From positions 1 through 60,291 of IMG/VR virus record IMGVR_UViG_3300045931_000347: a stretch of 60,291 nt of DNA; one strand, given 5' to 3'. This stretch comes from a virus. Taxonomy: Duplodnaviria > Caudoviricetes. The translations under genes and the position numbers were made by a program. The notes under the pieces are model-generated. The model ran no database searches, had not been told where the DNA came from, and worked only from the letters and a program-made list of their open reading frames with translations. Shown here piece by piece: positions 36,566 through 36,706 of this stretch; within the stretch, counting starts at the first letter, position 1, and each line of letters opens with the position of its first letter.

Positions 36566-36706
36566 TGCCCTCGGCCGGACTCGAACCGGCCTCGTCGGCG
36601 TTACGCCTCGGTGTTCGTTCAGGCTCCCGACGTCGCGGGCCTGCAGGGCTTGTGGCCCCGGGCGCCGACCGCGCGCTGTGCGCCGCGTACTCGTCGCTCC
36701 TGGGGC
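36566..36706 (-). ncRNA. Second, more degenerate tRNA-like RNA with long anticodon-arm insert
   Basis: Minus strand: T arm GCCGG-TTCGAGT-CCGGC, stem GTCGGCG/CGCCGAC enclosing 62 nt, acceptor GCCCCAG/CGAGGGC (5 of 7 pairs). Confidence 0.5.

What the first reader, a model, noticed from the sequence alone, without database searches (positions are those of the whole stretch)
36566..36706. Second tRNA-like RNA on the opposite strand sharing the CUGCA hairpin tip
Seen: on the minus strand, in the roughly 300-nt leader between the 36835-36863 promoter and the first ATG, there is a perfect T arm, a 7-bp stem enclosing 62 nt and a partial acceptor stem. Its insert has GCC-CTGCA-GGC; both RNAs contain CCTGCAGG (34999-35006 and 36640-36647) despite otherwise different sequence. 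Inference: two members of one RNA family with a conserved self-complementary loop (kissing contact or protein site), or a tRNA-like processing signal for RNase P/Z.
Basis: partly seen in the sequence, partly recalled or inferred. Interest (0 to 1): 0.75.

Follow-up and report, generated by a model that had tools for sequence, protein, structure and literature searches.

The report
tRNA-shaped leader of a phage gene
A tRNA-shaped fold lies in the untranslated leader of a phage membrane-protein gene and recurs in related soil phages with matching base-pair changes, so it is probably a real RNA signal, not a tRNA gene and not a partner of the other tRNA-like RNA nearby.

Summary
The window is a whole 60.3-kb, 68% G+C temperate actinophage-like virus record. 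The 7-bp stem and outer acceptor have ensemble probabilities of at most 0.007 and 0.036. The 7-bp stem keeps 0 of 7 pairs in the nearest homologue. The shared octamer is at chance level and is not conserved. No tRNA model or ARAGORN setting calls the site. A model of its family does not hit the first tRNA-like RNA.

What is there is a compact, roughly 85-nt cloverleaf (36565-36649, minus strand). It has a 5-bp closing stem, an internal arm and a canonical T arm. Two hairpins follow, and the second presents the Shine-Dalgarno sequence in its loop just before the AUG of a DUF2637 gene. Homologous cassettes precede this gene and neighbouring small ORFs in uncultured soil viral contigs. All helices show compensatory changes (93.5% of cells paired against 72.7% in shuffles).

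Best reading: a cis-acting tRNA-like leader, probably a processing or stability signal for RNase P/Z coupled to translational control. No Rfam family matches. There is no expression evidence.

The parts
36835..36863 (-). Promoter-like -35/-10 pair that would start the leader transcript
   Evidence: 9 of 12 matches, 17-nt spacer; 1 site found in 34850-37050 against 0.0 expected from shuffles. Consensus match only.
36650..36834 (-). Upstream part of the non-coding leader.
   Evidence: No codon-position G+C bias. Partly alignable only to L080. Pair probabilities at most 0.036 and at most 0.007. The 7-bp stem keeps 0 of 7 pairs in L080.
36565..36649 (-). Compact tRNA-shaped module (about 85 nt): closing stem, variable arm, conserved internal arm, T arm, then an unpaired A-C
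   Evidence: R2 scores 88.5 bits here, though this row was in the training set. RNAalifold on MAFFT alignment A9 predicts 19 pairs, 13 of them with compensatory changes. The window's own minimum free energy fold contains it.
36645..36649 (-). Closing (acceptor-like) stem P1, 5' strand; overlaps the first 3 bases of the octamer
   Evidence: Pairs with 36567-36571. Mean pair probability 0.99. 3 of 5 pairs change on both sides in A9, 88.6% of cells paired.
36640..36647 (.). The palindromic octamer shared with element 1
   Evidence: 2 copies in the window against 1.6 expected. No relative in A9 has the exact octamer.
36596..36629 (-). Conserved internal arm (two short helices around a conserved 8-12-nt loop); the most conserved sequence block of the module
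   Evidence: RNAalifold pairs at columns 39-41/70-72 and 44-47/60-63 of A9, with both-sided changes in 2-3 rows.
36573..36591 (-). T arm P2: 6-bp stem and 7-nt canonical T loop
   Evidence: Pair probability at least 0.995. 4 of 6 pairs show compensatory changes, 97.6% of cells paired. With the next 7-8 nt it is identical to real tRNA 3' ends.
36567..36571 (-). Closing stem P1, 3' strand, followed by the discriminator-like A (36566) and C (36565)
   Evidence: The A-C after the stem is invariant in all 7 rows of A9.
36561..36565 (-). Pyrimidine-rich linker complementary to the Shine-Dalgarno purines (possible anti-SD)
   Evidence: In the window's minimum free energy fold it pairs with the SD region in place of P4. 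Semi-conserved among leaders. Its role is inferred.
36544..36560 (-). Hairpin P3 (6 bp, 5-nt loop)
   Evidence: Present in the independent minimum free energy folds of 8 of 9 leaders. 4 of 6 pairs show compensatory changes on the model-fitted alignment A7.
36525..36541 (-). Hairpin P4 (5 bp) with the Shine-Dalgarno sequence (36530-36536) in its 7-nt loop, ending one base before the AUG
   Evidence: RNAalifold on an unfitted MAFFT alignment of 13 leaders predicts it. Two pairs covary (UA:8/GC:4 and GC:6/UA:4/CG:2). The exact motif occurs once in the window.
35964..36524 (-). Downstream gene: 186-aa membrane protein of family DUF2637
   Evidence: translation. PF10935, 25.8 bits against a cut-off of 22.8. 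85-90% identical in relatives.

Best explanation
Element 2 is the 3' two-thirds of a cis-acting structured leader RNA, not a tRNA gene.

The leader runs from a promoter near 36863-36835 to the AUG at 36524. It ends in a cassette of four helices:
- a 5-bp closing stem, whose 3' strand continues almost directly from the T stem as in a tRNA acceptor/T-arm stack;
- a canonical T arm (the closing stem also encloses a variable arm and a conserved internal arm);
- a hairpin, P3;
- a hairpin, P4, that displays the Shine-Dalgarno sequence in its loop right before the AUG.

Proposed mechanism. The tRNA-shaped module is recognised by the host's tRNA-end enzymes: RNase P at its 5' side, RNase Z or a similar enzyme after the unpaired A. 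This cuts the long or polycistronic transcript into defined mRNAs. The pyrimidine linker and P4 then set ribosome access to the start site.

Shown: the structure and its conservation with covariation.
Inferred: transcription of the leader, cleavage by RNase P/Z, and translational control.

My odds are about 0.8 that this is a selected RNA structure. They are about 0.35-0.45 that tRNA-processing enzymes act on it. The confidence given is for the whole statement.
For: 1. Homologous cassettes exist in other viral contigs.
- Model R1, built from L075 and L079 only, finds the window site at 55.5 bits (E 3.9e-10).
- It also finds sites in L080, L084, L078, L052 (2), L083 (2), L050 and L090 (4).
- Every copy I inspected is on the coding strand and directly upstream of an ORF start.

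2. Covariation on an unfitted MAFFT alignment of 7 long-type modules (A9).
- 93.5% of cells are paired against 72.7 +/- 3.2 in shuffles (0 of 500 reach it).
- 7 of 11 pairs change on both sides (2 of 500 shuffles reach it).
- Sliding the partner by one column gives 67.5% and 46.8%.

3. RNAalifold on A9 independently predicts the closing stem, T arm and internal arm. 13 of 19 pairs are compensatory.

4. On the model-fitted alignment A7 (16 distinct rows), 93.3% of cells pair against 71.0%. 18 of 25 pairs are compensatory, spread across all four helices.

5. P4 is predicted, with two covarying pairs, on an unfitted alignment of 13 leaders.

6. Many one-sided changes give G-U or U-G on the sense strand. 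That fits RNA pairing, not a duplex DNA site.

7. A copy not used in training (L052:1948-2033) scores 43.7 bits with R2. It keeps a 5-bp closing stem.

8. tRNA likeness.
- The 25-mer is identical to real tRNA 3' ends.
- The pseudo-uridine-arm motif is present.
- The closing stem plus T stem gives 10-14 stacked pairs across members, against 12 in tRNA.

9. Precedent.
- RNase P processes phage C4 and M3 RNAs and some mRNAs (PMC11143913, passages read).
- tRNA-like t-elements with the same T-arm motif direct RNase Z/P cuts in mRNA leaders (PMC1920247, passages read).
Against: - There is no expression or end-mapping evidence of any kind.
- The sample is small: 8 long-type rows and about 13 leaders. 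All come from soil metagenome viral contigs and may belong to a few lineages.
- The structure was derived from these same sequences, and A7 is fitted to the model.
- The closing stem is only 5 bp in the window. It appears in the independent minimum free energy fold of only 4 of 9 leaders, and P4 in only 3 of 9.
- The T loop is canonical in 6 of 8 long-type rows. It is lost in the short-type cassettes and in L052:1948-2033. tRNA mimicry may therefore not be the selected feature.
- No tRNA model scores the module.
- The fold of the region is no more stable than shuffles (z = -0.18).
- The phage has a tyrosine integrase and its attP has not been located.
Confidence: 0.45

Rival explanations
1. 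The same conserved leader structure acts only as a translational or stability element, for example an SD/anti-SD switch or a binding site for a protein or ligand. tRNA-processing enzymes play no part, and the T-loop likeness is structural or incidental.
For: - In 6 of 9 independent minimum free energy folds the SD purines pair with an upstream pyrimidine tract instead of forming P4.
- The short-type cassettes keep a conserved pyrimidine tract in the internal loop of the closing stem.
- The short-type cassettes have non-T-loop hairpins.
- L052:1948-2033 keeps the helices but not the T loop.
Against: - The 3' strand of the closing stem follows the T stem by 0-2 nt in every member, and the linker is always on the 5' side. 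That is the tRNA topology.
- The window's T arm plus acceptor 3' strand is letter-for-letter a real tRNA 3' end.
- An unpaired A-C follows the stem in 7 of 7 rows.
Confidence: 0.25
2. The T arm plus 3' acceptor is the attP core of this temperate phage: a copy of the 3' end of a host tRNA-Arg or tRNA-Leu gene where the tyrosine integrase recombines. It would have no RNA function.
For: - The window encodes a tyrosine integrase at 38943-39806.
- The 25-mer is identical to real tRNA 3' ends.
- In Actinomycetota, similar 3' ends belong to tRNA-Arg genes.
- Sequence upstream of the module is not conserved among relatives, although the gene product is 85-90% identical.
- G403 also has an integrase about 1.8 kb upstream of its leader.
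Against: - An attP core needs no complementary 5' strand. Yet the closing stem covaries.
- Cassettes occur 2-4 times in tandem in relatives.
- G402 (58 kb, 82% complete) has 3-4 cassettes but no PF00589 or PF00239 match.
- The site is 2.4 kb from the integrase gene.
- No arm-type repeats were found in 34800-39900.
- No match longer than about 36 nt was found in the 401 Actinomycetota genomes searched. The 42-mer has 0 exact matches in genome contigs.
Confidence: 0.1
3. The inverted repeats are binding sites for a DNA-binding protein, such as operators or promoter-associated sites. This is what was proposed for the extended start-associated sequences of Cluster K mycobacteriophages.
For: - The cassettes are repeated and tied to translation starts, as in Cluster K (PMC3203893, passages read).
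- A GntR-like regulator gene lies at 38080-38364.
Against: - Half-sites for one protein should keep their sequence. Here both arms change together into many different pairs.
- G-U pairs are tolerated on the sense strand.
- The outer stem is interrupted on one side only by 15-70 nt, which is unlike a symmetric operator.
- In Cluster K the departures did not support RNA pairing. Here they do.
Confidence: 0.08
4. A decaying remnant of a phage tRNA gene with no present function. The other complementarities are chance in 70% G+C sequence.
For: - No tRNA model hit and z = -0.18.
- L080 has a C-A mismatch in the T stem.
Against: Neutral decay does not produce compensatory changes in four helices across lineages, nor the same architecture in front of different ORFs.
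Confidence: 0.07
5. One reading: elements 1 and 2 are two members of one trans-acting RNA family. They would contact each other, or a protein, through the shared self-complementary octamer at a hairpin tip.
For: - Both octamer copies in the window fall in the two tRNA-like regions.
- Their best local alignment (the T-arm region) scores higher than all but 0.64% of random windows.
Against: - R2 does not hit element 1 at E up to 5.
- The Rfam tRNA model hits element 1 only.
- The octamer is not conserved in any of 6 relatives in A9.
- The octamer is partly inside the closing stem.
- 45.8% of random windows share an 8-mer with element 1.
- The similarity in the T-arm region is what any two tRNA-like T arms would give.
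Confidence: 0.03

Closest known systems
t-elements of plant mitochondria: tRNA-like cis-signals in mRNA leaders and trailers (PMC1920247, passages read)
   Same: - A non-canonical cloverleaf with a well-conserved pseudo-uridine (T) arm carrying the same 11-nt motif.
- Located in an mRNA 5' leader.
- Proposed to direct RNase Z and/or RNase P cuts that create mRNA ends.
   Different: - Here the host is a bacteriophage of a high-G+C bacterium.
- The module is fused to two further conserved hairpins that frame the Shine-Dalgarno site.
- It recurs in tandem before several ORFs.
- No RNA ends have been mapped, so the processing is only inferred.
Start-associated sequences (SAS) and extended SAS of Cluster K mycobacteriophages (PMC3203893, passages read)
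   Same: - Conserved repeats in actinobacteriophages that contain the Shine-Dalgarno core.
- They sit immediately upstream of the starts of a subset of genes, in one orientation.
- A further inverted repeat lies just upstream in about half the cases.
- Function unknown; a role in translation initiation is suspected.
   Different: - The sequence is different.
- Copy number is 1 in this window and 2-4 clustered copies in relatives, against 11-19 spread over half a genome.
- In Cluster K the inverted repeats did not support RNA pairing. Here all helices covary.
- Here the upstream part is tRNA-shaped.
Non-tRNA substrates of bacterial RNase P, including phage C4 antisense RNA, phage M3 RNA, pre-tmRNA and some mRNAs (PMC11143913, passage read)
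   Same: A phage-encoded RNA with an acceptor/T-arm-like stack that could be cut out of a longer transcript.
   Different: - No Rfam family of this group matched: 0 matches at gathering score over the window, and no such family at E up to 10 on the region.
- There is no 3' CCA after the unpaired A.
- No cleavage data exist.
Transfer RNA genes (Rfam RF00005), including tRNA-Leu and tRNA-Arg, whose 3' ends are identical to 36566-36590
   Same: Canonical T arm, 3' acceptor strand and discriminator A. Overall four-arm shape and size.
   Different: - No tRNA model or ARAGORN call.
- Closing stem of 5 bp rather than 7.
- No D arm with the conserved G-G.
- No 7-nt anticodon loop.
attP cores of tRNA-integrating temperate phages
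   Same: A tRNA 3' end carried in a temperate phage genome, in a non-coding region at a mosaic boundary.
   Different: - The complementary 5' strand covaries.
- Copies are multiple.
- The element is present in a contig with no recombinase detected.
- It lies 2.4 kb from the integrase gene.

Membership tests
tRNA (Rfam RF00005 / ARAGORN) | Covariance-model score at or above the gathering score (29 bits) | tested here: not met
   No tRNA match on the minus strand at 36565-36706 at E up to 10, in either a 2.2-kb or a 191-base scan. Element 1 scores 38.5 bits in the same scan.
tRNA (Rfam RF00005 / ARAGORN) | Called by ARAGORN, with or without an intron | tested here: not met
   0 genes with default settings. 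With introns allowed, nothing at the 100, 95 and 90% thresholds. Only a different low-score model appears at 85%, a range that gives many false calls in this window.
tRNA (Rfam RF00005 / ARAGORN) | T arm with canonical T loop, followed by a 7-nt acceptor strand and a discriminator | tested here: met
   The 25-mer is identical to the 3' ends of tRNA-Leu and tRNA-Arg genes: 49 stretches matched, and all 8 that I examined were tRNA 3' ends.
tRNA (Rfam RF00005 / ARAGORN) | 7-bp acceptor stem, D arm, anticodon arm with 7-nt loop | tested here: not met
   Closing stem of 5 bp. The internal arm has an 8-12-nt loop. The first arm varies in length by 15-25 nt among members.
attP core overlapping a host tRNA 3' end | Identity to a tRNA 3' end of the host, extending over the core | tested here: inconclusive
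   The host is unknown. The 25-mer matches tRNAs of unrelated bacteria. The 42-mer has 0 matches. In the 401 Actinomycetota genomes searched, the matches on the T-arm/acceptor part are at most 30-31 nt.
attP core overlapping a host tRNA 3' end | Linked to an integrase, single copy, with no need for a paired 5' strand | tested here: not met
   2.4 kb from the integrase gene. 2-4 copies in relatives. G402 has copies but no recombinase match. The closing stem covaries.
attP core overlapping a host tRNA 3' end | Prophage junction (attL/attR) at the site | not testable with these tools
   No lysogen sequence was found. Pattern scans across the junction gave 0 matches. The contigs laid show only variant phages.
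t-elements (tRNA-like mRNA processing signals) | Non-canonical cloverleaf with the conserved pseudo-uridine-arm motif, inside an mRNA leader | tested here: met
   Motif present at 36577-36587 on the minus strand. Four-arm fold supported by covariation. Non-coding leader between a promoter-like site and the AUG.
t-elements (tRNA-like mRNA processing signals) | RNA ends that coincide with the element's borders; cleavage by RNase Z/P | not testable with these tools
   No RNA run was listed for this sequence.
Cluster K SAS/ESAS | The 13-bp SAS consensus itself | tested here: not met
   The 17-nt start-proximal motif here (36525-36541) differs from the consensus quoted in PMC3203893. Only the purine core is alike. 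This comparison was made by eye.
Cluster K SAS/ESAS | Many copies per genome, each directly upstream of a start codon | tested here: not met
   One exact copy in the window. R1 finds 1 strong hit in G000, 3 in G402 and 1-2 in G403, all clustered within 2 kb.
C4/CI-type phage antisense RNAs and other Rfam families | Match to any of the 4227 Rfam models | tested here: not met
   0 matches at gathering score over the window. Only noise at E up to 10 on the region. 0 matches at E up to 1 on six related loci.

The most novel reading that the evidence does not exclude
A group of soil actinophages uses tRNA-shaped modules as punctuation between genes. Each module would be cut out by the host's RNase P and RNase Z. 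That would leave an mRNA beginning at a conserved hairpin pair that presents the Shine-Dalgarno sequence. It would also release a stable tRNA-like small RNA, about 85-105 nt, with a conserved loop that could act in trans. One example would be a decoy for tRNA-binding or tRNA-cleaving host factors. This would be a bacterial-virus counterpart of mitochondrial tRNA punctuation and plant t-elements.
Probability: 0.2. Interest if true: 0.8.

Novelty: new variant of a known kind. Interest (0 to 1): 0.6.

Why it matters
tRNA-like structures are known as processing and recognition signals in mitochondria, plant viruses and a few coliphage RNAs. I know of no conserved tRNA-shaped leader cassette fused to a hairpin that presents the ribosome-binding site, and I found none described for actinobacteriophages. 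No Rfam family matched. The two literature searches that bear on this, for tRNA-like RNase P leaders in bacteriophage and for start-associated sequences, turned up only analogues.

If the inference holds, it gives a compact, testable case of a phage using the host's tRNA-end enzymes and mRNA structure to shape expression of its lysogeny-side genes. It would also offer a possible RNA-level explanation for the start-associated repeats seen in other actinophages.

It also bears on annotation. A perfect T arm with a real tRNA 3' end in a temperate phage need be neither a tRNA gene nor attP.

Tried and rejected
- **Wrong frame.** (protein 3), 27 and 59 used 35964-36525, one base too long and therefore out of frame. 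still found relatives through DNA similarity. One search is void. It was repeated as with the right protein: 0 of 401 Actinomycetota genomes matched at E up to 1e-5. The family scans were repeated.

- **Close relatives of the whole region.** Megablast and blastn against 50,697 phage records found no match. tblastn with the DUF2637 protein found no match. blastn with the leader found only 25-47-nt T-arm-like pieces in 11 records. The neighbouring proteins have no close relatives in viral contigs.

- **Host and attB.** The 42-mer had 0 matches in genome contigs. The 26-mer had 0 matches in viral contigs. A junction 25-mer had 0 matches in metagenome contigs. I rejected the attP reading as the main explanation, for the reasons given under the rivals.

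- **Sequencing runs.** No RNA holder was listed.

- **Contigs of four soil DNA runs laid on 33000-41000.**
  - A lower-depth variant in X1 and X2 keeps 36559-36658 with 4 differences. One of them, 36589 G>A, turns a C-G pair of the T stem into U-G on the sense strand.
  - That variant then shows a joint to 36774 with only 20 letters on the shorter side.
  - Loose ends in X2 and X4 behind 36550 re-match for about 18 letters by my eye and then diverge at the 3' end of the module.
  - These are metagenome contigs with short sides, so I use them only as a hint of mosaicism, not as evidence.
  - The break at 38856-38876 coincides with a perfect 14-bp hairpin.

- **MAFFT alignments A1, A4, A5 and A8.** These misplace the 5' strand of the closing stem because the linker varies from 15 to about 70 nt. 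In A9, which I did use, two rows (L080, L078) are still one column out of register. This lowers the counts and does not raise them.

Two attempts failed for technical reasons before worked.

- **Repeats.** A search of 34800-39900 for arm-type repeats gave only short two-copy families.

  - Supplementary files of the two papers were not opened. Figures S3 and S4 of PMC3203893 may bear on how far the Cluster K repeats resemble these.
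Full report
**Setting**

The window is the whole of a 60,291-base virus record with 68.3% G+C.
- Its large terminase is at most 31.2% identical to those of Rhodococcus, Gordonia and Arthrobacter phages.
- It encodes a tyrosine integrase at 38943-39806 on the minus strand.
- Soil metagenome runs hold it.
- By third-position G+C, the genes around the finding are:
  - 33670-34923 (+);
  - a ribosomal-protein-L7/L12-like gene at 35180-35842 (-);
  - a 186-aa DUF2637 membrane protein at 35964-36524 (-);
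  - several small genes up to the integrase.
- 36525-36863 has no codon-position bias, so it is non-coding.
- A promoter-like site lies at 36863-36835 on the minus strand.

**Checking the observation**

- The T arm is real. Its ensemble pair probability is at least 0.995.
- Together with the next eight bases, the T arm is letter-for-letter the 3' end of real tRNA genes. The 25-mer matched 49 stretches of genome contigs. I examined 8 of them, and all 8 were tRNA-Leu (7) or tRNA-Arg (1).
- The T-arm motif occurs 4 times in the window against 0.72 expected.

- The region folds no better than shuffles (z = -0.18).
- The 7-bp stem has a probability of at most 0.007 and the outer acceptor at most 0.036.
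- Forcing them costs 5.4 kcal/mol.
- In the nearest homologue the 7-bp stem keeps 0 of 7 pairs.
- No tRNA detector calls the site.

The shared octamer is at chance level.
- There are 2 copies against 1.6 expected.
- 45.8% of 2966 random windows share some 8-mer with element 1.

**What the other tRNA-like RNA is**

Element 1 (34941-35059, + strand) matches the Rfam tRNA model at 38.5 bits, with a 48-nt insertion in the anticodon loop. ARAGORN calls it tRNA-Arg(gcg) with a 45-nt intron when introns are allowed. A covariance model built from the element-2 family gives no hit on it at E up to 5. The two are not one family by any test I could run.

**The turn in the analysis**

The product of the downstream gene is 85-90% identical in uncultured viral and metagenome contigs. 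The leaders of these contigs do not align beyond about 45 nt upstream of the AUG. Even so, each carries a hairpin at the same place, followed within 0-2 nt by a strand that pairs with a segment further upstream. Two more hairpins then follow before the AUG.
- One contig, L080, has a true homologue of the window's whole element.
- Further homologues of the long form lie upstream of other small ORFs in L075, L079, L083, L090 and L052.

**The structure**

Read 5' to 3' on the minus strand, the window's cassette is:
- closing stem P1, 36645-36649 with 36567-36571;
- inside P1, a variable arm, a conserved internal arm (36596-36629) and the T arm (36573-36591);
- an unpaired A-C;
- a pyrimidine linker (36561-36565);
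- hairpin P3 (36544-36560);
- hairpin P4 (36525-36541), whose 7-nt loop is the Shine-Dalgarno sequence;
- the AUG at 36524-36522.

The window's own minimum free energy fold contains P1, the T arm and P3. The first three bases of the octamer lie within P1.

**Comparative support**

- Unfitted MAFFT alignment of seven long-type modules (A9): P1 plus the T arm pair in 93.5% of cells, against 72.7 +/- 3.2 in shuffles (0 of 500). Seven of 11 pairs change on both sides (2 of 500). Sliding the partner by one column drops pairing to 67.5% and 46.8%. Two rows are one column out of register, which works against the result.
- RNAalifold on A9 independently returns P1, the T arm and the internal arm. 13 of 19 pairs are compensatory.
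- Model R1, built from two sequences only, finds the window's site at 55.5 bits and 12 other distinct sites.
- On R1's fitted alignment, 18 of 25 pairs are compensatory, across all four helices. A fitted alignment leans towards the model.
- An unfitted alignment of the last 55 nt of 13 leaders gives P4 with two covarying pairs.
- One-sided changes often give G-U on the sense strand.

Results against:
- Independent minimum free energy folds contain P1 in 4 of 9 leaders, P2 in 7 of 9, P3 in 8 of 9 and P4 in 3 of 9.
- The T loop is canonical in 6 of 8 long-type rows and absent from the short-type cassettes.

**Why not attP**

The phage is temperate-like and its attP is not located, so this rival had to be taken seriously.

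Against it:
- The 5' strand of the closing stem covaries, which a recombination core does not need.
- Relatives carry 2-4 cassettes in tandem.
- The 58-kb contig G402 (82% complete) has three to four cassettes and no tyrosine or serine recombinase match.
- The site is 2.4 kb from the integrase gene.
- No arm-type repeats were seen.
- No host match longer than a generic tRNA 3' end was found in the 401 Actinomycetota genomes searched or in genome contigs.

For it:
- The exact tRNA 3' end.
- The mosaic boundary at the module.
- An integrase at a similar distance in G403.

I give it 0.1. Recombination between repeated cassettes would also explain the mosaic boundary.

**How it most likely works**

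Shown:
- A conserved four-helix leader RNA exists.
- Its first part has the topology of a tRNA acceptor/T-arm stack, with 10-14 stacked pairs across members.
- An invariant unpaired A-C follows the module.
- Its last hairpin displays the ribosome-binding site.

Inferred:
- The module is recognised by RNase P (5' side) and/or RNase Z (after the A). This would cut long or polycistronic transcripts into defined mRNAs.
- The pyrimidine linker competes with P4 for the Shine-Dalgarno purines. This competition is seen in the window's minimum free energy fold.

Precedents:
- Plant mitochondrial t-elements have the same T-arm motif in mRNA leaders and are cut by RNase Z/P (PMC1920247, passages read).
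- RNase P processes phage C4 and M3 RNAs and some mRNAs (PMC11143913, passage read).

A purely translational role, without nuclease processing, is the main rival (0.25).

**Comparison with what is known, and novelty**

- No Rfam family matches the window or six related loci.
- The DUF2637 protein and the leader have no counterpart in 50,697 deposited phage records.
- The nearest concept in actinophages is the start-associated sequence of Cluster K mycobacteriophages. Those sequences have an extended inverted repeat whose departures did not support RNA pairing (PMC3203893, passages read). Here they do.
- My searches for DUF2637, for tRNA-like RNase P leaders in bacteriophage, and for start-associated sequences found no description of this motif. 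The library does not hold most subscription-journal papers.
- I file it as a new variant of a known kind: tRNA-like cis-elements in mRNAs.

**Limits**

- There are no expression data.
- The sequence set is small and comes only from metagenomes.
- The host is unknown.
- A collection-wide search for more members could not be run.

Noticed in passing
window 34941-35059 (+): Element 1 is a tRNA-Arg(gcg)-like gene with a 45-48-nt insert in the anticodon loop. It scores 38.5 bits against the Rfam tRNA model, and ARAGORN calls it only with introns allowed. A strong hairpin follows at 35132-35174. The insert itself begins with a second T-arm-like hairpin. The whole-window Rfam run at gathering score missed it, although its score exceeds the cut-off.
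   Followed up: partly
L050:4560-4860 (-): A relative has, convergent with its DUF2637 gene, a tRNA-like region: a T arm and acceptor-like ends around a large insert, followed by a terminator-like hairpin. This is the same relative position as element 1 in the window. ARAGORN calls nothing at 95% or above.
   Followed up: partly
window 35180-35842 (-): A phage gene for a 220-aa protein with both domains of ribosomal protein L7/L12 (Pfam 1.2e-19 and 7.5e-07) plus a C-terminal extension. It lies directly downstream of the DUF2637 gene.
   Followed up: no
L075:1219-2305; L079:1684-3626; L081:2221-2981: Relatives have 0.8-1.9 kb upstream of the DUF2637 gene without an ORF of at least 50 aa showing coding-type G+C bias. 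L075 and L079 carry a second tRNA-like module in this stretch. In other relatives (L052, L083, L084/L090) the equivalent stretch holds further cassettes in front of small ORFs.
   Followed up: partly
window 3551-3561 (+) and 42377-42387 (-): Two more copies of the T-arm motif lie inside coding regions. Their flanks do not form a T stem in the folds, so they are probably chance.
   Followed up: partly
window 38080-38807 (+): A GntR-family helix-turn-helix protein (94 aa) and a DUF6221 protein (148 aa) lie between the leader and the integrase. A perfect 14-bp hairpin at 38852-38885 sits between the convergent genes.
   Followed up: no
window 2164-8040 (+): A 1958-aa open reading frame directly after the terminase gene. 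Not examined.
   Followed up: no
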